A stretch of DNA of 64,000 bases from an uncultured Gemmatimonadaceae bacterium (GTDB taxonomy: Bacteria > Gemmatimonadota > Gemmatimonadetes > Gemmatimonadales > Gemmatimonadaceae), in contig CAWBOC010000007.1 of the NCBI GenBank assembly GCA_963790305.1, positions 192,001-256,000 of the forward strand, given 5' to 3'. Below the pieces are notes generated by a model. It had not been told where the DNA came from and ran no database searches. It worked only from the letters and a program-made list of their open reading frames with translations. The position numbers and the translations under genes are program-made. Positions 483-63,900 of this stretch are shown here, one piece after another; the stretch's first letter is position 1; each line of letters opens with the position of its first letter.

Positions 483-587
483 GGTAGTCGAGGGTGTCGA
501 GGAGGTCGAGGTAATCGAGGTGCAGGTGATCGAGGATGAAGTTTCCTCGATCACCTCGACATCCTCGACACCCTCGACTTCCACTCG
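481..587. repeat. Family A inverted tandem 9-mer element: (TCGAGGnnn)n-spacer-(nnnCCTCGA)n
   Basis: Read directly: gaggtagtcgagggtgtcgaggaggtcgaggtaatcgagg...cctcgatcacctcgacatcctcgacaccctcgac. Confidence 0.9.
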
Positions 588-1036: not shown

Positions 1037-1115
1037 CGAGGTAGTCGAGGTCGTCAAGGATGTCGAGGTGATCAAGGTGACGTCACCTCGATCACCTCGA
1101 CACCCTCGACTACCT
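1037..1115. repeat. Family A inverted tandem 9-mer element between convergent genes
   Basis: gaggtagtcgaggtcgtcaaggatgtcgaggtgatcaaggtgacgtcacctcgatcacctcgacaccctcgactacc. Confidence 0.9.
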
Positions 1116-17437: not shown

Positions 17438-18025
17438 ATGTCGACCTATCCCACCCCCGCGGCGGTCCGCCCAACGGCAATGCCGCCGCTGAACCTGGCG
17501 AAGCTCACGGCGGTATTTCGCGGCCGCTCCATCGCCGCGGCCGTCGACGCCATCTGGGTGCCCGCGGTTGCGGCGACGCTCATTGTCGTCGCCGGCGCCG
17601 TCGGTCACTGGCTGAAACAGCCCTGGCTCTTCGCGGGTCTTGGCCCGACGGTCCTGATGCTCGCCAGCAATCCGGGTCATGAGACGACCCGCTTCCGCGC
17701 GGTGGTCACCGCCCACCTGGCGGCGATCGGCTGCGCCTACCTCGCGCTGCTGCTTCTGAACGCGAGTGGCGCGACGGCTGTCATTACGAGGGCGACCGTG
17801 CCGCTTCCGCGCGTGTGGGCCAGTGCCGCATCGCTGGCAATGCTCGCCATCCTGATGCCGCAGCTTCGCGCCTACCACCCGCCCGCTGCCGCCACGGCAC
17901 TTCTCGTGACGCTCGGCGCGTACCGGATGACCGGCAAGACTCCGCTGGCGTTGATGGCGGGCGTCGTCGCGGTCGCGGTCATGGCGGAAGTGCTTCACCG
18001 AGTGAAGCCAAGGAAGTCGAGGTAA
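17438..18025 (+). CDS. HPP family membrane protein
   Basis: YHPPAAATALL motif, several TM helices. Confidence 0.85.
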   Translation: MSTYPTPAAVRPTAMPPLNLAKLTAVFRGRSIAAAVDAIWVPAVAATLIVVAGAVGHWLKQPWLFAGLGPTVLMLASNPGHETTRFRAVVTAHLAAIGCAYLALLLLNASGATAVITRATVPLPRVWASAASLAMLAILMPQLRAYHPPAAATALLVTLGAYRMTGKTPLALMAGVVAVAVMAEVLHRVKPRKSR

Positions 18026-18104
18026 TCGAGGGTGTCGAGGTGATCGAGGTAACGTCGTTGCCTCTCCTCGATCACCTCGACGACCTGGACAACCTCGATC
18101 ACCT
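18010..18104. repeat. Family A inverted tandem 9-mer element; supplies stop codons of both convergent genes
   Basis: gtcgaggtaatcgagggtgtcgaggtgatcgagg...cctcgatcacctcgacgacctggacaacctcgatcacct. Confidence 0.9.
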
Positions 18105-23494: not shown

Positions 23495-23887
23495 ATGCGC
23501 CCGTCCCCTCTCGTCGCCCTTACGCTCTTGCTGTTCGTCACGGCTGCGTGCGCTTCGTCCGGGCCAGGGACCCGAACTTCGGGCCGCCGCGACACCCGGG
23601 TGTTGAGCGCCGAAGAGATCAGGGCCGCCTCCGCATCGACCATGTACGACGTGATTCGCTCGCAACGCCCGGAATGGTTGATCAAGCGCGGGCAGACGAG
23701 CATCAACATGGAAGGCGACATCGTGGTCTACGTCGACAACGTGGCGCTCGGCGGCCCCGAGTCGCTGAAGAGCATCAATGTCCAGAGCGTGCAAAGCGCG
23801 CGATTTCTCAACGCGTCCGAGGCGCAGATGCGCTACGGCGTGGGGCACATGCACGGGGCGATCGTGGTGGTGACGCGAACCTCGTAG
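23495..23887 (+). CDS. Lipoprotein with TonB-plug-like domain
   Basis: Lipobox TAAC; VYVDNV...L..I....V...RFL.ASEA..RYG...GAIVV. Confidence 0.7.
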   Translation: MRPSPLVALTLLLFVTAACASSGPGTRTSGRRDTRVLSAEEIRAASASTMYDVIRSQRPEWLIKRGQTSINMEGDIVVYVDNVALGGPESLKSINVQSVQSARFLNASEAQMRYGVGHMHGAIVVVTRTS

Positions 23888-23980
23888 GTCGTCGAGGTTG
23901 TCGAGGTCGTCAAGGTGATCGAGGAGAAGCGATGCCGTTCCTCGATCACCTCGATGACCTGGACGCCCTCGACCACCTCG
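23886..23980. repeat. Family A inverted tandem 9-mer element between convergent genes
   Basis: gtcgtcgaggttgtcgaggtcgtcaaggtgatcgagg...cctcgatcacctcgatgacctggacgccctcgaccacctcg. Confidence 0.9.
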
Positions 23981-26861: not shown

Positions 26862-26932
26862 CGGAATACGGAGTGCGGAATGCGGATTGATGTGGTGTCC
26901 AAATAGTTTCCGCATTCCGCATCCCGCATTCG
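26861..26932. repeat. Family D inverted tandem 7-mer element (TGCGGAA / TTCCGCA)
   Basis: gcggaatacggagtgcggaatgcgga...tccgcattccgcatcccgcattcg between convergent genes. Confidence 0.85.
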
Positions 26933-33962: not shown

Positions 33963-34052
33963 GAGCTAAAGGCGCTAGAAGCGCTAGAAGCGCTAGGGGC
34001 GCTCGATGAATCCGTCCAGCGCCTTTAGCGCCTCTAGCGCTTCTAGCGCCTC
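33963..34052. repeat. Family B inverted tandem 9-mer element (GCGCTAGAG / CTCTAGCGC)
   Basis: ggcgctagaagcgctagaagcgctagggg...agcgcctttagcgcctctagcgcttctagcgcctc. Confidence 0.9.
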
Positions 34053-35521: not shown

Positions 35522-35878
35522 CTACCCCTCGATTTCTCCCCCCGCATCGACCCACGACTGAATGCCGCCGGTCATGGATGCGACATCGCCATATCCCATT
35601 TCACGCATGGTGTCGGCGGCGAGCGCCGAGCGATTCCCCCGGGCGCAGTAGAGCACGACTTTGCGCTCACGCGGAACCGCTCCTTCGATTTTCCCTTCGA
35701 GCGTCCCGCGCGCGACGTGCACCGCGCCCGGCAGATGCCCGAGATTCCACTCCCGATCCTCGCGCACGTCGATGATGGCAAAGTCCTCGCCGCGCTCGCG
35801 CATCTGGATGACGTCGCGGGCGGAGATTTCTTTGATGCGTGCTTTGGCGTCCTGGATGAGTTGGTGACCGGATTTCAT
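35522..35878 (-). CDS. Rhodanese-like protein
   Basis: IDVRE..EW..GHLPGA, YCARGNRS, GGI..W. Confidence 0.92.
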   Translation of the reverse strand: MKSGHQLIQDAKARIKEISARDVIQMRERGEDFAIIDVREDREWNLGHLPGAVHVARGTLEGKIEGAVPRERKVVLYCARGNRSALAADTMREMGYGDVASMTGGIQSWVDAGGEIEG

Positions 35879-35883
35879 GATGT

Positions 35884-35923
35884 GAGGTTGTCGAGGTCGT
35901 CGAGGTCGTCGAGGTCGTCGAGG
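35884..35923. repeat. Family A left arm (TCGAGGTCG x4)
   Basis: gaggttgtcgaggtcgtcgaggtcgtcgaggtcgtcgagg. Confidence 0.9.
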
Positions 35924-35978
35924 GCGGCGCGCGGCGTTTTGATGCCGCGAACTCCGCTTATCTGCTCAATGCTAGCAC

Positions 35979-36396
35979 ATGAGTGCACCCGACCCTCCGA
36001 AACATGGGCACACGGCGACGCGAACCCACCGCGATCTCGTCGTGTGGAGGGAAAGCATGCGTCTTCTCATTGAGGTTTATCACCTCGCCAAGGATTTGCC
36101 AACAAGCGAACTCTATGGTCTATCGTCGCAATTGCGTCGTGCGGCACTATCTATCCCGACTAACATTTCGGAGGGGTTCGGCCGGCGCGCGCCAGGTGAG
36201 TTGCGGCGCTTTCTATCGATCGCCGAAGGCTCACTTCGCGAGCTCCAAACATTGCTCGAGGCGGTAGCTCTCCTTTCATTACCTGCCTGCGGAAAGGCTC
36301 GAGGTGTCCGTGGCCACCGCCAACCGCGTGGGATTCCTCATCTATCGATTCAGGCAGACAGTGAGGCCCAAGTGTGCGTCTCCCCGATCACCTTGA
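35979..36396 (+). CDS. Four-helix-bundle protein (23S rRNA IVS protein / bAvd-like); single-base frameshift near 36275
   Basis: HRDLVVW, ELYGLSSQLRRAALSIPTNISEG, RFLSIAEGSLRELQT; deleting one T from CTTTC gives HYLPAERLEVSVATANRVGFLIYRF...TGA 36396. Confidence 0.9.
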
Positions 36397-36422
36397 CGAC
36401 GTCGATCACCTCGATCACCTCG
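36383..36422. repeat. Family A right arm
   Basis: cgatcaccttgacgacgtcgatcacctcgatcacctcg; contains stops of both the four-helix-bundle and LD-carboxypeptidase genes. Confidence 0.88.
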
Positions 36423-37335
36423 GCAGCACAGAAACGCTCCGCGCCCCAGCATCCAGCTCCCCCACCGCGCCCAGCGCCATCGTCCACTGCTCGCTCACGT
36501 GACCGACCGGCACCCCCGCGAGACACGGGACTCGCAACCAGTCGGCCAGCTCGAGCAAGACATCGTCGAGAGTTCGCGCGCCGTCGTCGGCCTCTTCGGG
36601 GCAATTGGTGCAGTCGCCAAAGATGATGGCGCGCACGCCGTGCAGCGCGCCGGAGAGACGCAGCTGCGCCAGCATGCGATCAATGCGATAGACCGCTTCG
36701 TTCACATCCTCGAGCACGAGCAACGCGCCGTCGAGGGGCGGGAGGTAGGGCGTTCCCACCAGCGCCGCGAATACGGCGAGATTACCTCCTTCTAATCGGC
36801 CGCGCGCCCGGCCCGGTCGGAGGACGCGCGCACGTTCCGCCACCCCGCAGGAGTCTTCCCCGCGCATCACGGCTCGCTCCAACGAGGCGCGCGAGAACGG
36901 CGAGAGCGGCGTGCGCGCCGTCGGGGCGTGGTACGACACGATCCCTGCCTGACGAGCGATCGCGCCGTGCAGCGCAGTCACATCGGAATAGCCAAGGATG
37001 GGCTTGGCATGTCCGCGCAGCGCGCTCCAGTCGATGCGATCGAGCACACGCATCGCGCCATAGCCACCGCGAAGGCACCACACGCCATCAACGCGCCGAT
37101 CGCGTAGCGCATCGTTGAGATCGGCCGCGCGCATCTCGTCGTCACCGGCGAAGTAGCCGGTGCGCGCGAGTGCATGTGGTGACACGACCGGTTCCCATCC
37201 GAGCGCGCGCACGTTCGCGATCGCGCGCTCGACATCATCGGGTCCACGGAGTGGGCCGGCGGGTGCGACGAGTGCGACGCGCGCACCAGCTCCGAGTGGT
37301 GGCGGTGCACGGCGCGCACTGGATGCAACGGTCAT
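36415..37335 (-). CDS. ldcA: LD-carboxypeptidase (S66)
   Basis: RGGYGA, GYSDVT, GGNL, LEDVNE, PVGH. Confidence 0.92.
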   Translation of the reverse strand: MTVASSARRAPPPLGAGARVALVAPAGPLRGPDDVERAIANVRALGWEPVVSPHALARTGYFAGDDEMRAADLNDALRDRRVDGVWCLRGGYGAMRVLDRIDWSALRGHAKPILGYSDVTALHGAIARQAGIVSYHAPTARTPLSPFSRASLERAVMRGEDSCGVAERARVLRPGRARGRLEGGNLAVFAALVGTPYLPPLDGALLVLEDVNEAVYRIDRMLAQLRLSGALHGVRAIIFGDCTNCPEEADDGARTLDDVLLELADWLRVPCLAGVPVGHVSEQWTMALGAVGELDAGARSVSVLPR

Positions 37336-37563: not shown

Positions 37564-38211
37564 ATGGCGGATCGCAACAAGGACCAGAATGAGGATCTCG
37601 GCTCGCAAGGCGGTCAGGGAGGAATGAGCGGATCCCCAGGAGGTTCGCAGAGTGGATCGCTCGGTGGATCGCGTGGTGGCGCTGGTGGGCAGCAGGGCAG
37701 CTCACGGACCGGAAGCTCGGGCGCCGACAGTGAAGGCTTCGGTGCGTCAGGTGCCGGATCGACTGGTGGCGCTGGCGGTTCGAGTGGACGCAGCGGCGGC
37801 GCCGGCGGTTATGGCGCGTCGGGCTCCGAGAGCGACATCGATGACGAGAGCATCGGTGATGAAAGCTCAGGATCGGGCGGCGGGCTGAGCGGCAAGGATA
37901 AGGATCGCGGCGGCCAGGGTGGCGGCGGCGGCGGCGGTGGCCAGCGCGGCGGTGGCGGCGGTGGTCAGGGTGGTGGCGGACAGGGTGGTGGCGGCGGCGG
38001 CGGACAGCGCGGCCCCGGTCAGGGCGGCGGCGGTCAGGGCGGCGGTCAGGGCGGCGGCCAGGGTGGTGGCGGTGGACAGCGCGGCGGCGGTGGCGGTGGC
38101 CAGGGTGGTGGTGGTGGCGGACAGGGCGGCGGCCAGGGTGGTGGCGGTGGACAGCGCGGCGGTGGCGGCGGCGGAATGGGCGGAGGCGGCGGCCAGGGCG
38201 GCAATCGCTAA
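37564..38211 (+). CDS. Gly/Gln-rich low-complexity protein
   Basis: GGAGG RBS, own terminator, GGGQ/QRGG repeats with synonymous codon variation. Confidence 0.75.
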   Translation: MADRNKDQNEDLGSQGGQGGMSGSPGGSQSGSLGGSRGGAGGQQGSSRTGSSGADSEGFGASGAGSTGGAGGSSGRSGGAGGYGASGSESDIDDESIGDESSGSGGGLSGKDKDRGGQGGGGGGGGQRGGGGGGQGGGGQGGGGGGGQRGPGQGGGGQGGGQGGGQGGGGGQRGGGGGGQGGGGGGQGGGQGGGGGQRGGGGGGMGGGGGQGGNR

Positions 38212-40752: not shown

Positions 40753-40759
40753 GGGTGAG

Positions 40760-40838
40760 CGAGGATGTCGAGGATGTCGAGGGTGTCGAGGAGAGCAACG
40801 ACGTTCCCTCGATCACGTCGACGACCTCGACACCCTCG
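40760..40838. repeat. Family A inverted tandem 9-mer element
   Basis: cgaggatgtcgaggatgtcgagggtgtcgagg...cctcgatcacgtcgacgacctcgacaccctcg. Confidence 0.9.
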
Positions 40839-40913
40839 CCACCTTTACCAAGGAACCTTTCCCACCTCCGAGGTGTCGAAGTATTCGGAAGCACACCTGC
40901 TTCCACCTCCGAG

Positions 40914-41021: not shown

Positions 41022-44000
41022 GTGCTTTCGCTGCGCGCAGCCGCCGACCTGCTCACCGCCGCCGCGACGCTCGAGCATCTGGCACCGCTCGCGCGCGCGG
41101 TCGGCGGCTTCGACGCACCGCTCCCGCTGGCCGATGATGCGCGAGCCGCCATGGGATTGGCGGACACCAGCGACGCCCGCATCGTCTCCGGCACCGGGTC
41201 GCTTCGAGTCCTCCTGCTGGAATGGCCGCGCGGCACCGCGCTACGTGAGCGCATCGCCGCCGCGGCCGCGCGCCTCAGCGCGCGCGCACCACATCTCCTC
41301 TGGCTCGTGATCGGCGTCGAGCGCGCGGGGAGCGCGCTCACCCTGGCGACCTGGACCGCCGACCGCGCACGGCCGCGCATTGCGGCTCTGACCGTCGATC
41401 GCCGGTACGTGATACCGAGCGATGCCGAAACGCTGTGTGCGCTCGCGATCGCGAGCGACGGCGACGACGTCATGACGCACACCCAATGGGTAGAGGTGCT
41501 GGGGCGTGATGCGCTGACGCGGCGGTTCTATCGCGCGCTCGAAGGCGTCGTCACCAACCTCGCCGAGCGCGCCGCGACACGCGCGGGCGCCGCGGATCGA
41601 CGCGAGATCGCACTGCTCTGGCTCTCGCGATTGCTCTTTCTCTCCTTTCTCGAGACGAAAGGGTGGCTCGACGGCGACCGCCGGTTTCTCGCTCGCCGGT
41701 TCGAAGCGTGCGCGGGAAGCGCGGGAGGAGCGCACCGACGCTTGCTGCTGCCGTTGTTTTTCGGAACCCTGAACACCCCGGTGCACAAACGCGCGGCGGC
41801 GGCGCGCGACTTTGGAACTATTCCCTTCCTCAACGGCGGCCTCTTCGCCCGATCGCCGCTCGAGCGACGGCATCGTGGGTTGCACTTCCCGGACGATGCG
41901 CTCGGTCGCGTCTTCGACGATCTCCTCACTCGCTATCGCTTCACCGCACGTGAGGACGACGTGCAATGGTCCGAAGCAGCCGTCGACCCCGAAATGCTCG
42001 GCAAGGCATTCGAATCGCTCATGGCAACGCGCGCGCGACGCCAGAGCGGCGCGTACTACACTCCCCACACACTCGTATCACGCGTAACGCGAGCGGCCCT
42101 CCTCGAGGCGCTCGCGCTGCCAGGACTCCGTCGGGGTGACATCACCGCAGCGCTCGATGGAGCCCCCGTCGACCCGACGACAGCAGCGCTATTGCGGGAA
42201 CGGGCGCTCGATCTGACGATCCTCGACCCTGCCTGTGGATCGGGTGCGTTCCTGGTGCACGGGCTCGAGGAGCTGACCGGTCTGCTCGTACGGTGCGGGG
42301 ACCCGCGCGCCCCGGTCATGATCCGCCGTTCGCTGCTCACGCGATCCATCTTTGGCGTGGACATCAACCCCACCGCGGTGTGGCTGTGCGAGCTACGCCT
42401 CTGGCTCGCCGTCGTCATCGAGCATGACGAAGTGAACCCACTTCGCATCCCGCCGCTGCCGAATCTGGATCGCCATATTCGCGTGGGGGACGCGCTCGGT
42501 GGTGCCGCCTTCAACGACACCACGATCGTGCCCGGCGGCGCTCGTATCGCGCGCCTGCGCGGCCGGTATTCACGTGCGTCCGGGTCGCGAAAGCGAACGC
42601 TGGAGCGCGAGCTCGACCGGGCGGAACGTGCGCACGCCCGCGCAGTGCTCGATGCGAGCATCGCGCGATGCGCCGCGGCGCGCCGCGCTCTGCTCGCCGC
42701 CTGGCGCGGTCGCGATCTGTTTGGCGAGCGCTACGCGCCGACCTCCGCCGAGCGCACCGAGGCTCAGGTGCTCCGCATGCGGTCGCGTGACTCCCGTGCT
42801 GCATTACGCGCCCTCACGCACGGCGGCGCCCTCCCCTTCTCCTTCCCGACACACTTCGCCGACGCCGCGTCGCGTGGCGGGTTCAATGCGATCATTGGCA
42901 ATCCGCCGTGGGTGCGGCTTCACCGTATTCCGGTCGAGGCGCGCCGTCGGCTGCGCGCTTCCTTCGCCGTGTTCACGCGGGCGTCGTGGGAGCACGGGGC
43001 CGAGGCGGCACATGCTGGCCACGGGTTCGCTGCCCAGGTGGACCTCTCCGCCCTCTTCGTCGAGCGGTCGCTCGAGCTGTTGCGCGATGGCGCTCCGCTC
43101 GCGCTGCTTCTTCCGGCCAAACTCTGGCGGGCCCTTGCCGGTGGTGGCGTTAGGCGCCTGCTCGCCGAGCACGCCACGGTGGTAGCGCTCGAGGATTGGT
43201 CCGAGTTTCCTGCCGCCTTCGACGCCGCCACCTACCCGTCGCTGCTGGTCGCGCGCCGCGGACGCGCATCCCCTCCGCGCGATGTCGCTCTGACGATCCG
43301 CCGGCGCGAGGGAGCCCTCGAATGGATGCTTCGTCGGGCGGCGTTAGGGTTCGACACGGATGAGGCCGCGCCGTGGCTCATGCTCCCGCCTCCCGCCCGT
43401 CAGACCTTCGATCGTCTTCGCGCCGCCGGCACGCCACTCCACCAGACGTCCCTCGGTCGTCCGCTGCTGGGCGTAAAGTGCGGGTGTAACGAAGCCTTCG
43501 TCGTCGGCATTGGCGACGCGGCCATCGAGGAGGCGATGCTCCGCCCGGTGATTCGCGGCGAGTCGCTGGCGCCGTGGCGCCTTGCCGACGCGGGCGAGCT
43601 GATCGTCTGGACGCACGGGTCGGATGGTCGTGTCCTTCCAGTCCTTCCGCCGCGCGCGCGCCGCTGGCTCGAGCGCTGGAGACCGCGCCTCGCCGCGCGG
43701 AGCGACGCACGAGGGTCATGCTGGTGGTCGCTGTTCCGCACGGCTGCCGCCGATTGTCGGCGGGCCCGCGTCGTGTGGGCCGACGTCGGCAAGGCGCCGC
43801 GCGCTATCGTTCTCGAAGCAGGCGATCCTGCCGTTCCGCTCAACAGCTGTTACGTGATCGCCTGCGATCGTGAGGAGGATGCGCACGCGATCGCCGTGCT
43901 GCTGAACTCCATGGTGGCTGCCGCGTGGCTCAACGCGCTCGCCGAGCCGGCTCGTGGCGGATATCGTCGCTACCTGGGCTGGACCGTCGCGCTGCTTCCT

Positions 44001-44166
44001 CTGCCTCACGATTGGGAGCGCGCACGAACGCTGCTCGCCCCGCTCGGCAGGCGCGCATCATCCTGCGGCGAGCTCGCCCCAGAATGAAGCGCTGCTCGCG
44101 GTCGCGCGAGCCTACCGGCTTCGCGCCGCCGACCTCGAGCCCCTGCTGGCATGGATGGGCCGCTGA
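41022..44166 (+). CDS. Large N6-adenine DNA methyltransferase (Eco57I/type IIG-like architecture); probable frameshift near 44075
   Basis: PFLNGGLF, DPEMLGKAFE, GAYYTP, DPACGSGAF, GVDINP, IGNPPW; track ORF stops at 44087, a likely true C-terminus (ARAYRL...LEPLLAW) continues to 44166. Confidence 0.88.
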
Positions 44167-46370
44167 CGCGGGAGTCCGCCGCCAGCGTGCGGGCACTCAT
44201 CGCGAACGCCTGGCTGGCGCCCGATGCGCCACAGACGTTAGGCAGCATCACGCTCCGTCCCCATCAGCGAGAGGCCGTGGCGCGGGCGCGTGTCGCGCTC
44301 GCGGCGCACGGTGGAGCGCTCATTGCCGACGACGTGGGCCTCGGAAAGACCTTCATCGCGCTCGCGCTCGCCGCGGAGGCGCAGCGCTCGCTCGTAGTCG
44401 GTCCGGCCGCGCTGCGCGCCATGTGGTCACACGCCTGTGCGCAAACCGGTGTGAACACGGAGTATCGCTCATATGAAGCACTCAGCCGGTCGCCGATGCC
44501 TGCGCAAGGCCACGACCTCGTCATCCTCGACGAGGCGCATCACGTGCGTACGCCGCGGACTGCTCGTTACCGGCATCTCGCGCAGGGATTGGTTGGCGCC
44601 CGAGTGCTTCTCCTCACCGCGACGCCGATCCACAACAGCATTCGCGACCTGCGTGCCGTGCTGGCGCTCTATCTGGGCGCGATCGCCTGGGCGATCAATG
44701 AGGGTGAGCTTGCAGCACACGTCATTCGACGAGAGCAGGAAGACGTGGGGTTCGACGCCCCGCTGCCCACGCTGGCGCCGCCTCGACCGATCACGCTCTC
44801 CAGCAATGACGACCTGCTCGACGAGATAATCTCCCTTCCGGCACCCGTTCCACCGCGCAATGGCGGCGACGGCGGCGCGTTGCTCTCGTTCACCCTCGCC
44901 AGATTGTGGGCGTCGAGTCACTTCGCGCTCCGTGCTGCCCTCCGCCGTCGCCTTCACAAAGCGCGGGCGCTCGAGGATGCGCTGGGCTGCGGACGTCATC
45001 CCACTCGTGGAGAGCTGCGCGCCTGGGCAATTGGCGACGACGCGACGCAGCTCGCCTTTCCCGAGCTTGTGGCGACGAGCGGAGAGGGCGACATCGGAGG
45101 TCTGTTAGGTGCGGTGGGTGCGCACGCTTCCGCCCTCGAGACACTCATCCGGGCGATGCCGGTTGATTCCCCGCACGATCGCGAACGCGCGGACCGCATA
45201 CGCGACATCGCGCTGAGGCATTCGGGCGAGAAGATCATTGCATTCACCCAGTTCGCGGACACGGCCACGGCACTCTTTCGCCTGCTGCGGGACTCTGTCC
45301 AATGCTGCCAGCTCGACGGGGGCGGCGCACGGGTGGCGGGCGGCCGTCTGTCCCGGCGTGAGGCACTCGCGCGATTCGCGCCGCGGGCGAGCGGAGCGGC
45401 GGAGCCGGCGGCGTCCGATCGCATTGATCTGCTCATCACCACCGATCTCCTCAGCGAAGGAGTCAATCTTCAGGACGCCTCGGTGGTGGTGCACCTCGAC
45501 CTGCCCTGGACCTCGGCCCGCATGGCACAGCGTGTTGGCCGCTCCCGCCGTCTTGGCGCCACCCATCCGTCGACCGTGGTTTATGCGATCGCTCCCCCGG
45601 CAGCTGCCGACGCGCTGTTGCGGCAGGAACAGCGGTTGCGCGAGAAGCTTCGCGCGGCAGCTCGTGTCACCGGCGCGTGCGGCGCGATCCTGCCCGTTAG
45701 GCTGGTGCTCGCGTCCGCGACCGCAATCGACGAAGAGAGCGCACCCACGCGCCACGCGCAGCTCCTTCGCGCGCTCCTCGCGCGCTGGCGTACCGGGCCC
45801 ATCGCGAGTGCAGGGCCGCCAGGCGCGTACGTTCGCGCCAGTACGTCAGGCGCCCTGGCCCTCGTGAGGCAGGGATCCGAGCGTCTGCTCGTGGCGCTCG
45901 TGGATGGCCAGGTGAGTGGCCGCCCCGCCGACATTCTTGCCGCCGCGCGACTCGCCGATGGCGACGAGAATATCGAGGACGACGTCGATCGAGTCACGCC
46001 AGTTCTGACGAAGCTCGAGGCGTGGCTGTCGGCCCGCGCCGGCGCCAGCGTCGCCGGCGTCGGTCACACCATCGCCGGAGCGGCCCGGCGCGTGGCGATG
46101 CAGCGCATCGCGCACATCGCCGCCCGCACCCCGCACCATCACCGGGCGCAGGTCGCTCCCCTCGCAGCCGAGGCACGGCGGATTGTGACCGCTCCCTACG
46201 GGGTTGGCGCGGAGCGCATCCTCGCCGAGCTCGCTGGTTCTGCCCTGCCCGACGAGGCCTGGCTTCAGGCCGTCCGGGCATTCGGGGATGCGAACTGCAG
46301 AGGCGCTGCAGGCGCTAGAGGCGCTAGAGGCGCTGGGACGATTGAAGCAATCATCGTGTTCGAGCCGTAA
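44151..46370 (+). CDS. SNF2-like superfamily 2 helicase/ATPase
   Basis: LRPHQ, ADDVGLGKT, LDEAH, TATP, TDLLSEGVNLQ, QRVGR. Confidence 0.9.
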   Translation: MDGPLTRESAASVRALIANAWLAPDAPQTLGSITLRPHQREAVARARVALAAHGGALIADDVGLGKTFIALALAAEAQRSLVVGPAALRAMWSHACAQTGVNTEYRSYEALSRSPMPAQGHDLVILDEAHHVRTPRTARYRHLAQGLVGARVLLLTATPIHNSIRDLRAVLALYLGAIAWAINEGELAAHVIRREQEDVGFDAPLPTLAPPRPITLSSNDDLLDEIISLPAPVPPRNGGDGGALLSFTLARLWASSHFALRAALRRRLHKARALEDALGCGRHPTRGELRAWAIGDDATQLAFPELVATSGEGDIGGLLGAVGAHASALETLIRAMPVDSPHDRERADRIRDIALRHSGEKIIAFTQFADTATALFRLLRDSVQCCQLDGGGARVAGGRLSRREALARFAPRASGAAEPAASDRIDLLITTDLLSEGVNLQDASVVVHLDLPWTSARMAQRVGRSRRLGATHPSTVVYAIAPPAAADALLRQEQRLREKLRAAARVTGACGAILPVRLVLASATAIDEESAPTRHAQLLRALLARWRTGPIASAGPPGAYVRASTSGALALVRQGSERLLVALVDGQVSGRPADILAAARLADGDENIEDDVDRVTPVLTKLEAWLSARAGASVAGVGHTIAGAARRVAMQRIAHIAARTPHHHRAQVAPLAAEARRIVTAPYGVGAERILAELAGSALPDEAWLQAVRAFGDANCRGAAGARGARGAGTIEAIIVFEP

Positions 46371-46405
46371 GCGCCTCTAGCGCCTCTAGCGCCTCTAGCG
46401 CCTCT
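46299..46405. repeat. Family B element; left arm inside the helicase CDS, right arm after its stop
   Basis: agaggcgctgcaggcgctagaggcgctagaggcgctg...agcgcctctagcgcctctagcgcctctagcgcctct. Confidence 0.9.
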
Positions 46406-46514
46406 TCTCAGCCATGAGCTCGTCAGCCCCACCCACGTGGCCTCAACGCCCGGCATTCAAACCTTTCGGGCCATTCCGGTATCTGATCCCACGACTCGGA
46501 GACATGGTCAGCGG

Positions 46515-49631: not shown

Positions 49632-49722
49632 CTAGAGGCGCTGGACGCGCTAGAGGCGCTAGAGGCGCTGAAGGGGTTAGCCCCCTCAGCGCCTCTAGCG
49701 CCTCTAGCGCATCTAGCGCCTC
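49632..49722. repeat. Family B inverted tandem 9-mer element between convergent genes
   Basis: ctagaggcgctggacgcgctagaggcgctagaggcgctga...tcagcgcctctagcgcctctagcgcatctagcgcctc. Confidence 0.9.
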
Positions 49723-55115: not shown

Positions 55116-56203
55116 ATGACTTTCGCCCAGACCCCTCTCTTCTCGGCCGCCTACGAGCGCTCCTCCCGCCAGCTCCCCGTCCTTGGCGAGCAGCGAGACA
55201 TCGCCTACGTGGGCACGCGGGCGAAGAACGTCCTCAACGGTCCGGAAGTCACGAAGATGGGGTACTGGTCGATCAACCCCTACATCGGCTGCGCGTTCGG
55301 GTGCACCTACTGCTACGCCCGGTACGCGCACCGCTACGTGATGGAGCGCTCCGTCACCGCCAATGTGCTGACGGAGGACGTTAGGCAGTCCGCCGCCGCC
55401 ATGCCCGCCGTGGCTCGCCTTCGAGCGGCGGATCTTCGTCAAGCAGAACGCCGCCGAGGTGCTCGCGCGTACGCTGCGGCACGGGAGCGACAAGCATCTG
55501 CGGCTGCATCCAGGGCGAGACGATCCTCATCGGCACTGCGACGGATCCGTATCAACCCGCCGAACGTCGCTATCGCGTGACGCGCGGTATCCTGGAGGTG
55601 CTCGCCGAGCATCCAGGGCTGGACATCGTCATCATCTCGAAGAGTCCGCTCGTCACTCGCGACGTCGACCTGCTGCGTCGCATCGCGCGTCACTCGTCGC
55701 TCTCGGTCCATCTCTCGCTGATCACGCTCGATCGCGCGCTCGCGCGCCGCATCGAGCCGCGGGCACCGACGCCCGAGGCGCGGCTGCGCGCGCTCGTGCG
55801 GCTTCGTGAGTCGGGCATCGACGCCGGGATCAACTGCATGCCAGTGCTCCCCGGCATCACCGACGATCCGCGTGGCCTCGAGGCGCTGGTGAAACGGGCA
55901 GCAGAGCTGGGCGCGACCTTCGTGAGCGTCTCGTCGCTCCGGCTTCGGAAGACGGCGCAGCAGCGCTACTTCCCATTCATTGAGCGGGAGTTTCCGCATC
56001 TGGCCGCGCACTATCGCAAGGCCTACGCGACGACCTGGCATCTGAGCGACCGCTATCGCGAGTCGTTAGGGAAATTCTTCGACAAGCTGTGCCGGAAGTA
56101 CGGGGTTGAGGGTGGAATGGGGCGGAGCGATGCGGAGGAGGAGGGGGGAGCGGAGCGGACGGAGCTTCCGGCGCAGCTGGGGTTGTGGGAGGAGGGAGGC
56201 TGA
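55116..56203 (+). CDS. Radical SAM protein, SplB/Rv2578c-like; two single-base frameshifts (~55404, ~55507)
   Basis: SINPYIGCAFGCTYCYAR, FERRIFVK, IGTATDPYQPAE, ISKSPLVTRDVD, PVLPGITD spread over three frames. Confidence 0.88.
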
Positions 56204-56293
56204 AGTGATCCAGGTTGTCGAGGTCGTCGAGGTTATCGAGGAACAAACCATTCACCTCGACTACCTCGATTACTTCGACGACCTGGATCACCT
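56202..56293. repeat. Family A inverted tandem 9-mer element
   Basis: gtgatccaggttgtcgaggtcgtcgaggttatcgagg...cctcgactacctcgattacttcgacgacctggatcacc. Confidence 0.9.
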
Positions 56294-56325
56294 GGGTGGG
56301 ATGACCTTGGGGCGGAGGTGGGGAG

Positions 56326-57594
56326 ATGCTGACGCTAGAGCAGAAGCTCGACATTCTGATGACGCTCGCGACCGACGATCAGGACGGTCCACCGGGATCA
56401 CAGACACTGCCGCCGAGGCTGCGGCACACGAAAGAGGTCGGCGCACTGCGGCCGCTCAACATTCGCACCGTGCGTCCAGGGAACGGGATGCGAGTCCCGC
56501 TGCTGCGCATCCTCATGACCAACGCGTGCAGCTACAACTGTCACTACTGCCCCATGCGACGGGATCGAAAGCTCCCGCGCACGCTCCTCAAGCCCGAAGA
56601 GCTCGTTAGGATCTTCCTCGGCGCCCACCGCCGCGGGTGGTGTGAGGGGCTGTTCATCACCACCGGGATTCCCGGACGGCCGGTGAAGGTGATGGATGAT
56701 CTCATCACGGTGCTCGAGCTTCTGCGCGAGCGGCACAGCTTCGCCGGCTACATCCACGTCAAGATGGTGCCGGGCGCCGAAGCCGCGCAGGTGGAACGGC
56801 TCACCTCGCTGGCGAGCCGCGTCTCGCTCAATCTCGAGGCGCCGTGCGGCGCGAGCCTGGCGCAGATCGCGCCCGACAAGAATTTCGACGTCACTGTCGC
56901 CGGCCTCGAGCAGGTGCGCGCGCTGGTGACGCTCGAGCGGGCAGCGCGGCAGGAGGGTAAGCCGCGCGATCCGATTCATCCCGGCGGCACGGCGGGAATG
57001 ACGATGCAGTTCGTCGTCGGCGCGACGCCCGACTCCGATCGCAGCATACTCACCAAGGTCACCGAGCTGTATTCCGGTGGCGGCATTCACCACGCGCACT
57101 TCAGCGCGTTCCGCCCCATCAGCGAGACACCAATGGAGAACGTGCGCGGCACGCCAGCGCTGCGCGAGCACCGGCTCTATCAGGCCGACTGGCTGCTTCG
57201 GCGCTACGGCTTCGAGCGCGGTGAGGTGGTCTACGACGAGGGCGGCAATCTGCCGCTCGGCATCGATCCGAAGGCAGCGTGGGCGTTGCGCAACGTGGAG
57301 CGATTCCCCGTGGAGGTACGCACCGCGTCGTACGACACGCTCCTCCGCGTGCCGGGAATCGGGCCGGGGACGGCGCGCCGCATCGTGGCCGAGCGCGGCA
57401 CGGCGGTGCTGCGCGGCCTCGCCGATCTCCGCAAGCTCGGTGTGCTCACCTCGCGCGCGGCGGGATTCATCACGTTAGGCGGACGCCGGCTGCAGGATGT
57501 GCGATGGAGCGAGCAGCTGGGATTCTGGCAGCCGGAAGAGGAAGCGGGCGCCTATCAGCTCGTCTATGACGTAAGTCCGGGCACGTTCAGGTAG
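56326..57594 (+). CDS. Putative DNA modification/repair radical SAM protein with helix-hairpin-helix (TIGR03916-like)
   Basis: LMTNACSYNCHYC, FAGYIHVK, REHRLYQADWLLRRYGF, LLRVPGIG. Confidence 0.9.
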   Translation: MLTLEQKLDILMTLATDDQDGPPGSQTLPPRLRHTKEVGALRPLNIRTVRPGNGMRVPLLRILMTNACSYNCHYCPMRRDRKLPRTLLKPEELVRIFLGAHRRGWCEGLFITTGIPGRPVKVMDDLITVLELLRERHSFAGYIHVKMVPGAEAAQVERLTSLASRVSLNLEAPCGASLAQIAPDKNFDVTVAGLEQVRALVTLERAARQEGKPRDPIHPGGTAGMTMQFVVGATPDSDRSILTKVTELYSGGGIHHAHFSAFRPISETPMENVRGTPALREHRLYQADWLLRRYGFERGEVVYDEGGNLPLGIDPKAAWALRNVERFPVEVRTASYDTLLRVPGIGPGTARRIVAERGTAVLRGLADLRKLGVLTSRAAGFITLGGRRLQDVRWSEQLGFWQPEEEAGAYQLVYDVSPGTFR

Positions 57595-57609
57595 GGTCCA
57601 GCCAGTCGC

Positions 57610-57638
57610 TTGACTGGCGGTAGCCGATTTGGTAGCAT
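57610..57638 (+). promoter_or_regulatory. Sigma70-type promoter for imuA
   Basis: TTGACT-17bp-TAGCAT. Confidence 0.55.
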
Positions 57639-57650
57639 TCGGCTCCTATA

Positions 57651-57669
57651 CTTCGGTCTTTGTTCGGTA
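57651..57669 (+). promoter_or_regulatory. Candidate operator CTTCGGTCTTTGTTCGGTA (putative SOS box)
   Basis: Same motif as 55071-55089, between promoter and imuA ATG. Confidence 0.6.
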
Positions 57670-57678
57670 CCCTACTTC

Positions 57679-58368
57679 ATGCCCTCTTCCGTCGCCGCCC
57701 TTCGCGCGCTCGTCGAGCAGCGCTTTCCCGATGCGCTTCCCATCACGCATCGGACGACGGCGGTCGCGACCGGCATGGCCGCTCTCGACCACATTCTACC
57801 GAGCGGCGGGCTTCCGCGGGGGCGGCTGTCGGCGTGGGACTCGCAGGGAGGCGCGACGGCCATCCTGCGGGCGGCATGCCTAACGACCGTGCAAGCGGGC
57901 GAGCGCGCCGCCTGGATCGATGGACGCGGCGCAGTGGGCGGTGTCGTGTGGGACGATGGACCCATCCTTCTCCGCCCCAGCAATCTTCCGCAGGCGCTTC
58001 GCTCCGCCGAGGAGCTGCTCCGGTCTGGGGGGTTCGGCCTCATCGTGCTCAGCGGCCTCGAGCCCGCCCGCACCGAGACGGTGCGTCTGACGCGCGCCGT
58101 TCGCGAGGGAGGCGCAGCCTTCGTCACGGTCGCGCGCGAATCCTCGATGGCAAGCCTGCGCCTGACGTCGCGCCTGCTTCCGAACGGCTATCGCTGGCGC
58201 CGCGATCCTTTCGGCGGTCCCGCCGAGGCGCAGGCCGCGGTCATTCGTGTGCACGCGCAGGCGCCGGGCTGGAACGCACACACCGATCTCTCGATCCCGA
58301 TCATCCATCATGAGCTTCGTCTGTCTCTGGACGCCACGCTGGCAGACCGACGCGGCGTCCGCCGCTGA
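57679..58368 (+). CDS. imuA: ImuA-like degenerate RecA-family protein
   Basis: TGMAALDHILPSGGLPRG, AWID, AEELLRSGGFGLIV; no Walker A; position before imuB-dnaE2. Confidence 0.75.
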   Translation: MPSSVAALRALVEQRFPDALPITHRTTAVATGMAALDHILPSGGLPRGRLSAWDSQGGATAILRAACLTTVQAGERAAWIDGRGAVGGVVWDDGPILLRPSNLPQALRSAEELLRSGGFGLIVLSGLEPARTETVRLTRAVREGGAAFVTVARESSMASLRLTSRLLPNGYRWRRDPFGGPAEAQAAVIRVHAQAPGWNAHTDLSIPIIHHELRLSLDATLADRRGVRR

Positions 58369-59644: not shown

Positions 59645-62600
59645 GTCGAGGCGGTCGAGGTCGTCCAGGTCGTCGAGGTGATCGAGGGAACGTCGCCTCG
59701 ATTACCTCGACGACCTCGACGACCTCGAGCACCTCTTGCTACTCCGAGCTCCGCACCCACACCGGCTTCTCGTTCGGCGACGGCGCCACCACCCCCGAGC
59801 GGCTCGTTATGCGCGCCCGGCAGCTCGGCTACACCAGTCTCGGCATCACGGATACCACGGACCTCGGAGCGGTGCCTCGGTTCGTGACCGAGGCGCGGAC
59901 GATCGCCAAGGATCCCGACTGTCGTCGCGCCGCGAGCCACGCCGACGAGCCCTGCCCCATCTGCGAGCGGCCGCTGCGGCCGATCGTTGGGGCGGAGCTC
60001 ATCGTCGACGGCTATCCCGCCGCCTTTCTCGTTCGCGATGAGCGCGGCTGTCGCAATTTGGCCGCGCTGCTCACCTGTGCTCGCGTCGGCAGATGGGAGG
60101 AGTGGGAGAAAGCGGCGCAGGGAAAGCGGCGCGGGCATCCACAGGTAACGTGGGAGCAGCTCGCCGCTCGCAGCGACGGGCTGCACGCGCTCACCGGGCC
60201 GGCGTCTGGGGAGATCGCGTCACTCTTACGCGCCGGCGATGAAGCGGGAGCCGAGCGCGCGCTCGACAGATGGCGCGACGTCTTTGGCGCTCGGATCGCG
60301 ATCGAAGCTCAACTCCATCACGTCGGCGGATCCGAAGCGATGCTCGCCGGGTCATTGATCGAGCTCGCCGAGCGTCGTGGAGTCCCGTGGGTCGTCGCGC
60401 ACGATCCGCGCTACCTCGACGACACGGGACGGCTCGTTCACGACATGCTCACGGCGCTTCGTCACGAGATGGATCTGTCGACGGCCGCCGAGCGCGGCGT
60501 CTTGCGACCTAACGGGGAATGGCGATTGATCGCGCCCGCGCAGATGGCGCGCCGGTGGCGAGGCCGAGCGGAAGGGCTGCGCGAGAGCCAGCGGATCGCC
60601 GAGGAATGTGAATTCGATCTGCGATGGATGCGTCCGCCGCTTCCGCACTACCCCGTCCCGGAGCGTAACGACGACGACTCGTATCTCCGCGAGCAGACCT
60701 ACGCCGGAGCACACGAGCGGTGGGGCACCACGCTTTCCGACGCACAGACGCATCAGCTCGAGCACGAGCTCGCCCTCATCAAGCAGCTCGGCTTCGCTGG
60801 ATTCTTTCTCGTCATGTGGGACGCCATGCAGTTCGCCCGTGAACGCGGAATCCTCTCCCAGGGACGCGGCAGCGCCGCCAACTCGGCGGTCGCGTACTGC
60901 CTCGGCATCACCGCCGTCGACCCCGTCAAACATGGCCTGCTGTTCGAGCGCTTTCTCTCCGAGATCCGCGCGGAGGGGGGCGCTGAAGCGCCGGACATTG
61001 ACGTGGACATTGAGCACGACCGGCGCGAGGAGGTGCTCGACTACGTCTATGCGCGCTACGACCGCGCGCACGCCGCCATCGCCTGCATCGTCCAGACGTA
61101 CCGCGCGCCCAACGCCGCGCAGGACGCGATGCGGGCGTTAGGCTACCCGCCGGAGATGATGTTCGCGATCTCGAAGCGCGTGCACCATCACGAGCCGGCG
61201 GCCGGCGCCGAGTACATTCGCGAGAGCGCCGCGGCGCGCGCGGGAGTCGACATCACTGACCAGCGCGGCCGCACCCTGCTTGCGGCAATGGCCGGCTTCG
61301 AGGGACTTCCCCGGCTTCGAGCGACCCACGTCGGGGGCTTCGTCCTCTCCTCCGCCCCACTCGGCGACTACCTGCCGATCGAGCAGACGACGATGGGGCG
61401 GACGATCGTGCAGTTCGACAAGGATGATCTCGACGCGGTCGGCGCGCCGAAGTTCGACTTCCTGGGGCTGGGGGCGCTGTCGCAGGTGCGCCGCGCGTTC
61501 GACGTCATTGAGCGGCGGACCGGCACGCGTCCCGAGATGTATCGGCTGCCGCAGGATGATGCGAAGAGCTACGACCTGATCGCGCGCGGCGAGACGATCG
61601 GGATGTTCCAGATCGAGAGTCGCGCGCAGATCGCATCGATCCTGCACACGCGTCCGGCATACCTGTACGATCTCGTGGTGCAGGTCGCGCTCATTCGGCC
61701 CGGGCCGATCCAGGCGAAGTTCGTTCACCCCTACACACAGCGGCGCCTCGGTCTCGAGAAAGTCGTGTACGCGCACCCGGCGCTCGAGCCGATTCTCCGG
61801 CGCACCCAAGGCATTCCGATCTTCCAGGAGCAGGCGATGGCGATCGCCATGGCGCTCGGCGGCTACACGGGCTCCGAGGCGGACGAGCTGCGGCGCACGA
61901 TGGGGAACCAGCGAAAGAAGGATCGTCTGCTTCGATCGCTGCAGCGGCTGGCGCATCGCCTCGTCGAGCACCAGATCGACGAGCGCATCGCATTGAAGAT
62001 CTGCGAGGACCTGCAGAGCTTCGCGAATTACGGCTTTCCCGAATCACATGCCTGGAGCTTCGCGCTCATCGCGTACGCGACCGCCTGGCTCAAAGCGCAC
62101 TATCCAGCGGAATTCTATGCCGGCTTGTTGAACTCGTGGCCGATGGGATTCTATCCCGTCTCGACGCTCATCCACGACGCGCGACGCCATGGAGTCGAGG
62201 TGCGGCCCGCCTGTCTTCGCGATGGCGATTGGGAATGCACGGTGGAAGAGACCGGCCAGCCCGACCGGCCGGCCATGCGCATCGGATGGCGGCACATCCG
62301 CAACGTGGGGACGAAGCTGCTCGATGCGCTACGCGCGAGTCGCAGCGATTCCCCCTGGACCTCGATCGCCGATGTCGTCAGGCGCACCCGACTCATTCGC
62401 AGTGATGCGCTGTCGCTGGCACGCGCGGGCGCATTCGGCGCCTGGGAGCCCGACCGGCGCCGCGCCGCCTGGCAGGCACTGCACGCCGTGGGAGACGTGC
62501 TTCCGCTCGCCCCAGCGCGGATGACATCACACGATCCGCCGCCCCTGGACCCGTTGCAGCTCATCTTTCTCGACTATACGACGACAGGGTCGAGCATCCA

Positions 62601-63774: not shown

Positions 63775-63900
63775 ACTAGGGGTCAGGAGTCAGGGATCAG
63801 GGGGGTCAGGGAATGGGTGACAGGAGAACGGCTCGCGCGACCCCTGAACCCTCTTCCCTGACACCCCCTGATCCCCGACTCCTGACTCCTGACCCCTAGT
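63775..63900. repeat. Family C inverted tandem 7-mer element (TCAGGAG / CTCCTGA)
   Basis: actaggggtcaggagtcagggatcagggggg...ccccctgatccccgactcctgactcctgacccctagt. Confidence 0.9.

What the first reader, a model, noticed from the sequence alone, without database searches (positions are those of the whole stretch)
35884..36422. Four-helix-bundle gene bracketed by inverted tandem-repeat arms and inserted antisense into an operon: candidate IVS-like mobile element
Seen: the 9-mer element that occurs empty at seven other sites is split here. The TCGAGG arm lies at 35884-35923, the CCTCGA arm at 36383-36422, and a visibly lower-GC four-helix-bundle gene sits between them. The cassette lies on the opposite strand between ldcA, whose TGA is inside the right arm, and the rhodanese gene, whose ATG is 5 nt from the left arm with no obvious SD. 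Established: this protein family (TIGR02436, 23S_rRNA_IVP, bAvd fold) was first found in 23S rRNA intervening sequences, often antisense and within a paired stem; its relative Avd acts with DGR reverse transcriptases. Inference: in the ldcA-rhodanese-nudix mRNA the arms could pair and loop out the gene, re-juxtaposing stop and start, i.e. an mRNA-level IVS. The short hairpins elsewhere would be non-autonomous copies. No transposase or RT is in the window.
Basis: partly seen in the sequence, partly recalled or inferred. Interest (0 to 1): 0.88.

Follow-up and report, generated by a model that had tools for sequence, protein, structure and literature searches.

The report
Four-helix-bundle cassette among swapping repeat hairpins
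A small gene of unknown function sits between mirror-image arrays of a 9-base repeat and looks like the gene-carrying form of hundreds of short repeat hairpins that replace one another at fixed gene junctions in these bacteria, by a mechanism nobody has yet identified.

Summary
In detail: inverted 9-mer arms (35884-35923, 36382-36421, 78% complementary) bracket a PF05635/TIGR02436 gene that here carries a +1 frameshift. Such arms are the rule for this family: 33 of 35 loci in the genus and 67 of 78 across phyla, against 1 of 300 and 0 of 132 controls. The genome holds 288 gene-less hairpins of about a dozen repeat words. Relatives carry hairpins at the same junctions but often of another word, one empty slot in this window holds a full cassette in four relatives, one cassette was copied arm-to-arm between loci, and arm word follows the protein tree. 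The mRNA-level IVS reading is weak: RNase III was found in 1 of 41 genomes of the order, arm mismatches show no G-U bias on the transcribed strand (130 vs 127), and antisense orientation is not general. Best reading: a selfish, DNA-level hairpin element family with the gene-bearing cassette as master; no transposase or RT was found, so the mechanism is inferred. I found no description in print; this scan has noted the cassette on other DNA many times (181 notes).

The parts
35884..35923 (+). Left arm: G-rich tandem 9-mer array (about 4.5 units), ends 5 nt from the rhodanese start codon
35979..36396 (+). Four-helix-bundle gene (PF05635/TIGR02436), about 138 codons, +1 frameshift near 36264-36281; stop inside the right arm
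   Evidence: fold of the intact G005 orthologue matches 2GSC (TM about 0.9) and Avd (about 0.8)
36382..36421 (+). Right arm: C-rich complementary 9-mer array, contains the ldcA stop codon
36415..37335 (-). ldcA-like LD-carboxypeptidase (S66), host gene; start approximate
35522..35878 (-). Rhodanese-domain gene, host gene
483..582 (.). Empty hairpin, same 9-mer word
1048..1115 (.). Empty hairpin, same 9-mer word
18017..18098 (.). Empty 9-mer hairpin between convergent stops; other words at this slot in G004, G005, G008
23886..23978 (.). Empty 9-mer hairpin; same word in G004 and G008, another word in G005, none in G003
40759..40839 (.). Empty 9-mer hairpin; same word in G008, slot empty in G003
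56205..56291 (.). Empty 9-mer hairpin; same word in G004, 7-mer words in G003, G005, G007, G008
59648..59735 (.). Empty 9-mer hairpin at the slot that holds a full four-helix-bundle cassette with 7-mer arms in G004, G005, G006 and G008
26862..26930 (.). Empty hairpin of a 7-mer word (family of the cassette at G000 C10:203511)
33970..34051 (.). Empty hairpin of a second 9-mer word (family of the cassette at G000 C9:787754); other words in G004, G005, G007, G008
46299..46405 (.). Second-word hairpin whose left arm lies in frame in the end of the helicase gene and whose right arm follows the stop
49635..49722 (.). Second-word hairpin; 7-mer arms around a shared interior in G004, G005, G007, G008
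63778..63899 (.). Empty hairpin of a 7-mer word (family of the cassette at G000 C5:70659)

Best explanation
The cassette is the gene-bearing (master) form of a family of selfish palindromic elements built from tandem 7-10 nt words. Shown: each element is a G-rich arm, a loop or gene, and a C-rich arm; elements sit tight against gene ends; they occupy a limited set of junctions at which one word family replaces another; whole cassettes are copied between loci; arm word follows the protein lineage; the genes are under purifying selection yet repeatedly die, leaving arms. Inferred: the Avd-fold protein (probably a pentamer) recognises its own tandem word in a folded-back DNA strand and lets host repair enzymes copy an element into a resident hairpin, replacing it; fold-back copying keeps the two arms matched. 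The protein has no known catalytic site and no RT or transposase accompanies it, so the cutting and copying step is supplied in trans and is unidentified (the arm-flanked GxxExxY genes, a family Pfam files as PD-(D/E)XK-like, are one candidate). This copy is probably a dying master at a site occupied since early in the genus.
For: Arms at 33 of 35 genus loci vs 1 of 300 controls, at all 14 further loci printed (by eye), and at 67 of 78 loci from many phyla vs 0 of 132. 288 gene-less hairpins, 288 with a purine-rich 5' arm, 281 intergenic, 235 of 333 stop-side ends within -25..+10 nt of the stop. Slot sharing with G004 (86.6% identity): 35 both, 23 and 29 one only, 348 neither, odds ratio 18; of 56 G000 hairpin slots, 14 (20 by eye) hold another word in G004, about half with another unit length. 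G008's cassette at the window-59648 slot is 88-91% identical over 527 nt to cassettes at another site, while G004's cassette at that slot did not reach 75% identity to it. All six sites with 9-mer arms form one branch (97/99; 0 of 500 shuffles). One word is abundant where a cassette bears it (218, 100, 80 matches in G003, G004, G005; 9 in G000, 0 in G001). dN/dS 0.05-0.16 in 15 pairs, with 6 clear breaks among 54 loci. States at this very site: intact (G002, G003, G005, G007), broken (G000, G004), gene deleted with arms kept (G008), no cassette in other genera. No strand bias of G-U over A-C mismatches, as expected for a DNA-level or unselected stem.
Against: No mobilising enzyme was found: no RT and no Y1 transposase in G000, and no clear target duplication at filled/empty pairs (by eye). 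No near-identical fresh copy was seen; the best inter-locus copy is 91% identical and ordinary gene conversion between paralogues could give it. G003 (98% complete) has an abundant 7-mer hairpin family (25 per Mb) with no matching gene. Many sites are inherited vertically across the genus with purifying selection, and 52 of 56 slots keep some hairpin (by eye), which fits a host function. Arms also flank ordinary host sequence (window 46299-46405; a small host gene at C7:189537). Word-clade agreement can come from co-inheritance alone. Binding was not tested. The frameshift lies at a T run and the assembly has about 8 frame breaks per 42,158 aa compared, so an error is not excluded.
Confidence: 0.55

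Rival explanations
1. Host regulatory network: the hairpins are useful 3'-end or intercistronic RNA structures (stabilisers, terminator substitutes, translational couplers), the four-helix-bundle proteins are word-specific RNA-binding regulators that autoregulate through their own arms, and words spread by ordinary gene conversion.
For: Slots are conserved whatever the word; median 4 nt from stop codons and enrichment between convergent genes (88 of 280 vs 263 of 1958 gaps); dN/dS about 0.1; the homologue Avd binds an RNA stem-loop with all five protomers (10.1101/2023.10.23.563531, passages); most Xanthomonas/Nostoc repeats are transcribed (PMC4692102, abstract passage).
Against: No G-U preference on the transcribed strand; 35 elements between divergent genes; frequent gene death and wholesale word replacement within a genus; 5 of 41 relatives had no family match.
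Confidence: 0.22
2. Passenger: the hairpins spread by host replication slippage, fold-back copying and recombination alone; the gene rides inside some of them and has an unrelated function.
For: Arms also surround host sequence, a GxxExxY gene, another hairpin family and an IS3; G003 has a hairpin family without a matching gene; no enzyme activity is known for the fold.
Against: Near-universal arm flanking of this one family across phyla, including heptamer repeats in the Coxiella IVS arm (PMC4990558, section 16), and the word-clade match are hard to get without a functional link.
Confidence: 0.13
3. One reading: an mRNA-level intervening sequence; arms pair in the ldcA-rhodanese-nudix message and the loop is cut out or bypassed, bringing stop and start together.
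For: Predicted fold pairs the arms (z -2.45, 2 of 100 shuffles as good); in all 7 genus alleles with both ends the arm begins at the ldcA stop and ends a few nt before the rhodanese ATG; 9 of 9 codirectional genus sites are antisense; the two arms change together in G003 and G002/G007.
Against: RNase III found in 1 of 41 genomes, on a 1.5 kb contig, 0 of 25 with PF00636, best tblastn E 0.51 in G000; IVS cleavage leaves unligated pieces (PMC4990558, passage), which would split rather than join an mRNA; no wobble bias; sense orientation is commoner across phyla; cognate arm pairing is not the best pairing within the G000/G004/G005/G008 group.
Confidence: 0.07

Closest known systems
ORF-bearing intervening sequences of 23S rRNA (Coxiella burnetii helix 45, S23p; PMC4990558: passages and section 16 read)
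   Same: Same protein family inside terminal complementary arms; the Coxiella 5' arm has tandem heptamers of variable copy number; the ORF decays in some strains; patchy distribution.
   Different: Here the cassette lies between protein genes, not in rRNA; hundreds of gene-less copies exist; many words coexist; RNase III, which excises the IVS, was not found.
G-rich heptamer repeats of Xanthomonas and Nostoc (PMC4692102: passages read) and TAACTGA repeats of Beggiatoaceae (PMC4679880: abstract and passages read)
   Same: Intergenic tandem heptamers near stop and start codons, rare between divergent genes; in Xanthomonas often as inverted pairs. L124 and L136 carry four-helix-bundle genes with arms of the Xanthomonas word.
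   Different: In the passages searched neither paper names a four-helix-bundle gene (0 hits for 'helix bundle') or slot replacement; no transfer mechanism was evident to those authors.
REP/REPIN elements with RAYT transposases (recalled; PMC3733652 seen as a listing only)
   Same: High-copy extragenic palindromes close to stop codons, a gene flanked by the same palindromes, species-specific families, IS3-family insertion into loops (IS1397-type targeting is recalled).
   Different: Arms are tandem words rather than 20-40 nt single hairpins; the flanked gene is not an HUH transposase, and PF01797 was not found in G000.
Avd of diversity-generating retroelements (4DWL, 8UB7; 10.1101/2023.10.23.563531 and PMC10053308: passages read)
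   Same: Same fold (TM about 0.8 at 11-12% identity); Avd is a positively charged pentamer that binds an RNA stem-loop and is non-catalytic.
   Different: No RT in the window or genome; the protein is much closer to Xcc0516 (2GSC, 47-49% identity).

Membership tests
PF05635 / TIGR02436 four helix bundle protein | Profile score above curated cut-off | tested here: met
   97.5 vs 33.8 bits; 92.3 vs 24
[quoted passage not shown]
   Model of the intact G005 orthologue, pLDDT 96, TM 0.87-0.91 to 2GSC; the window copy itself is frameshifted
23S rRNA intervening sequence | Inserted in an rRNA gene | tested here: not met
   None of the six family hits lies in the two 23S genes
23S rRNA intervening sequence | Complementary termini able to form a stem | tested here: met
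23S rRNA intervening sequence | Host RNase III available to excise it | tested here: not met
   G000 is 94% complete, relatives 70-100%
23S rRNA intervening sequence | Removed from the RNA in vivo | not testable with these tools
   No RNA holder listed
REP/REPIN-RAYT | High-copy extragenic palindromes near gene 3' ends | tested here: met
REP/REPIN-RAYT | Y1 (HUH) transposase flanked by the repeats | tested here: not met
   PF01797 0 matches in G000
REP/REPIN-RAYT | Conserved GTAG/CGTC tetranucleotide at the hairpin foot | not tested
   feature seen only in the title of PMC3733652
Insertion sequence / MITE | Terminal inverted repeats shared by gene-bearing and gene-less copies | tested here: met
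Insertion sequence / MITE | Target-site duplication | tested here: inconclusive
   None clear by eye in filled/empty pairs at 87% identity
Insertion sequence / MITE | Transposase encoded by the autonomous copy | tested here: not met
   Only PF05635 in the cassette
Diversity-generating retroelement | Reverse transcriptase beside the Avd-like gene | tested here: not met
Diversity-generating retroelement | Template repeat / variable repeat pair | not tested
   not searched, since no RT was found

The most novel reading that the evidence does not exclude
A class of mobile element with neither transposase nor reverse transcriptase: an Avd-fold ring protein reads its own tandem repeat word and directs a copy of that word's hairpin (empty or gene-bearing) to overwrite resident hairpins at gene ends, so that competing word families succeed each other at fixed slots. 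The 23S rRNA IVS and the unexplained heptamer repeats of Xanthomonas, Nostoc and Beggiatoaceae would be special cases of it.
Probability: 0.3. Interest if true: 0.9.

Novelty: new variant of a known kind. Interest (0 to 1): 0.72.

Why it matters
It ties three separate puzzles to one testable system: the function of the widespread PF05635 family, the way ORF-bearing rRNA intervening sequences spread, and the origin of abundant 7-9 nt intergenic tandem repeats in several phyla. It gives matched protein-word pairs for a direct specificity test. If movement depends on the gene, it is a way of rewriting hundreds of gene junctions without a known transposase or RT, in a lineage that seems to lack RNase III.

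Tried and rejected
Sequencing runs: no RNA holder listed; four DNA runs laid at 85% likeness did not cover the gene, and the two 'joints' across the cassette have 33-35 nt sides and loop letters between, so they are empty hairpins from other loci, not excision. Rfam: no match in 19 loci. Promoter/terminator scan of 35800-36500: none. A leaderless -10 box before the gene: 9 of 36 cassettes vs 241 of 3121 gene starts with several candidate starts allowed per cassette, so inconclusive and dropped. My first impression that 4 of 6 G000 genes are broken was corrected to 2 clear and 1 probable. 'Always antisense' was rejected after the cross-phylum sample (crude neighbour calls). 'Targets stop codons only' was rejected (35 divergent cases, some likely gene-call errors). 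The match of one 9-mer unit to the 16S 3' tail applies to one word family only and was not used. A telomerase-like de novo synthesis of arms was considered because of the G-rich 5' arms, and set aside: no RT was found and dispersed copies share loop sequences. Most long-gap inverted pairs were two separate hairpins or chance matches. Dropped rows: L046 (below cut-off) from the trees; 2 of 80 edge loci; L057 is a self-exclusion artefact. Paper search was swamped by an unrelated word; one search did not return the REP translation paper, so that work is recalled only. No supplements were read.

Full report
Observation. The arms are at 35884-35923 and 36382-36421 (40 nt, 78% complementary). Between them lies a PF05635/TIGR02436 gene from ATG 35979, 58.6% GC against 67.0% for the window, on the strand opposite to ldcA and the rhodanese gene. 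The ldcA stop is inside the right arm and the rhodanese ATG is 5 nt from the left arm. Seven empty hairpins of the same word are in the window. New: the gene has a +1 frameshift near 36264-36281. It sits at a T run and the assembly shows 8 frame breaks in 42,158 aa of redundant comparisons (4 distinct genes), so an error is possible; but the orthologues in G004 and G008 are also dead, by different lesions.

Arms are a property of the gene family. All six family genes in this genome have inverted tandem arms, each with a different 7- or 9-nt word. In G000-G005, 33 of 35 loci score 14 or more against 1 of 300 random positions; the two misses are a contig-edge locus and a hit below the family cut-off. 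Fourteen further loci from G006-G008 all show arms by eye. Two of four GxxExxY genes in G000 pass the same score and all four have such repeats beside them.

Gene-less copies. G000 holds 288 periodic hairpins of about a dozen words; all 288 have the purine-rich arm 5' (G over C in 285), as do 63 of the 67 cross-phylum arms (counted). They are intergenic (281), enriched between convergent genes and depleted between divergent ones (157/88/35 against 1213/263/482 gaps), with 235 of 333 stop-side ends within -25..+10 nt of the stop. Gene calls are from my own codon model, so starts are rough.

History of this site. Six of eight genus relatives have the gene at the ldcA-rhodanese junction, G008 has the arms with most of the gene deleted, and G006's contig ends there; of the 15 genomes from other genera, the ten with ldcA next to the rhodanese gene have no cassette. 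In all seven complete alleles the arm starts at the ldcA stop and ends a few nt before the ATG. Both arms changed together in G003 and in G002/G007, but within the G000/G004/G005/G008 group cognate pairing is not the strongest. G003's protein groups, with moderate support (84/80), with cassettes of a similar word at another site.

Slots and replacement. At orthologous junctions relatives usually have a hairpin but often of another word. Against about 0.8 Mb of G004 (86.6% identity), 56 G000 hairpin slots gave 30 same, 14 different, 12 unclassified; by eye 32, 20 and 4, about half of the changes involving another unit length. Against about 0.45 Mb of G003, 22 slots gave 3, 8, 11; by eye 3, 11, 8. 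Over all 435 comparable junctions with G004: 35 both, 52 one only, 348 neither (odds ratio 18; many 'one only' rows have degenerate hairpins in both). The empty hairpin at 59648-59735 marks a slot that carries a full cassette with 7-mer arms in G004, G005, G006 and G008. G008's cassette there is 88-91% identical over 527 nt, arm to arm, to cassettes at another site, whereas G004's cassette at the same slot did not reach the 75% listing threshold against it, although G004 and G008 flanks are about 95% identical elsewhere. So whole cassettes are copied between loci, by transposition or by gene conversion.

Word and protein. With one gene per site (16 sites), the six with 9-mer arms form one branch (97/99; 0 of 500 shuffles). 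One 9-mer word is abundant in genomes whose cassettes bear it (G003 218, G004 100, G005 80 matches; G008 32, also with such a cassette) and rare elsewhere (G000 9, G001 0); the window's word has 35 hairpin matches in G000 and none in G003. Against: G003 has an abundant 7-mer family with no matching gene. The genes show dN/dS 0.05-0.16 in 15 pairs, and 6 of 54 loci are clearly broken.

The mRNA-IVS idea. A fold of the minus strand pairs the arms (z -2.45), and in this genus the gene is antisense at 9 of 9 codirectional sites and faces a host 3' end at 14 of 15 scorable sites. But across phyla sense is commoner (32 vs 12). In 157 hairpins between codirectional genes, mismatches are 130 G-U and 127 A-C on the mRNA strand: no sign of selection for RNA pairing. 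SD-like motifs precede only 832 of 3123 gene calls. No RNA data could be laid.

Mechanism. The protein folds like Xcc0516 (five chains in 2GSC) and like Avd, a non-catalytic pentamer that grips an RNA stem-loop between protomers. I infer that a ring reads three to five tandem words, in the manner of repeat-binding rings such as TRAP (recalled). No RT or Y1 transposase is in G000, so cutting and copying must come from the host or from partners such as GxxExxY. Replacement of resident hairpins, nesting of one family in another's loop and an IS3 in a loop suggest that the folded hairpin is the target. Fold-back template switching (recalled) can keep the arms matched and can explain arms around host sequence (46299-46405). 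The intact, broken, deleted and replaced states recall the invasion-decay cycle of homing endonucleases (recalled). These steps are inferred, not shown; I put this model at 0.55, a host RNA-regulatory network at 0.22, a passenger gene at 0.13 and the mRNA-IVS at 0.07.

Known and new. The Coxiella 23S IVS has this gene family, a terminal stem and tandem heptamers (PMC4990558; passages and section 16). Inverted intergenic heptamers are described for Xanthomonas (PMC4692102; passages) and unexplained heptamers for Beggiatoaceae (PMC4679880; abstract and passages), without the gene link in the passages searched. Searches returned no paper that, by its listing, describes the gene-plus-arms cassette outside rRNA; the library lacks most subscription journals and I read no supplements. 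The scan itself has 181 notes with these words, so the architecture was found before on other DNA; one further look-up for slot replacement returned nothing, though a listed note already speaks of cassettes being swapped. What this locus adds is the slot-by-slot replacement count, the inter-locus copy, the word-clade match, the missing RNase III and the wobble test. G015 (unpublished) is one row in several tallies; no claim depends on it.

Noticed in passing
G000 whole genome and G001-G040: RNase III was found in only 1 of 41 genomes of this order (one hit on a 1.5 kb contig); how rRNA is matured here is open.
   Followed up: partly
G000 C12:2462-3888 and C7:4662-6090 (outside the window): An IS3-type element sits in the loop of a 9-mer hairpin; the two contig ends appear to be the same locus with the IS in opposite orientations.
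   Followed up: partly
L066-L069 (G000 GxxExxY genes, TIGR04256): All four GxxExxY genes have their own tandem-word arms or adjacent hairpins (8-, 9- and 10-mers), with matching gene-less families in the genome.
   Followed up: partly
window 46290-46415: A 9-mer arm is inserted in frame in the end of the SNF2-type helicase gene (Gly-Ala-Arg repeats) and pairs with an arm after the stop; G003 and G007 lack both arms.
   Followed up: partly
window 36403-36420: The repeat unit matches 9 nt of the 16S rRNA 3' tail, so the minus-strand arm is a strong SD-like sequence at the ldcA stop; true for this word family only.
   Followed up: partly
slot at window 49625-49730 in L075 and L078: G004 and G008 carry the same interior between 7-mer arms in opposite orientations, as from inversion between the arms.
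   Followed up: no
G000 C7:121246-121567 and C7:189537-189913: One hairpin family nested in the loop of another; and 7-mer arms around a small ordinary host gene.
   Followed up: no
window 37564-38211 (+): ORF for a 215-aa glycine/glutamine-rich low-complexity protein with no Pfam match.
   Followed up: no
window 55577-62961 (+): Two radical SAM genes followed by an ImuB-like gene and a DnaE-type polymerase (likely an imuAB-dnaE2 mutagenesis cassette; label recalled), with hairpins at two of its junctions.
   Followed up: no
window 41022-46370 (+): Eco57I-type methylase gene next to an SNF2-type helicase, a possible restriction/defence pair.
   Followed up: no
L028 and L029 (G020, G014), upstream of the rhodanese start: Genomes of other genera have a single short tandem array at the same position, without a cassette.
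   Followed up: no
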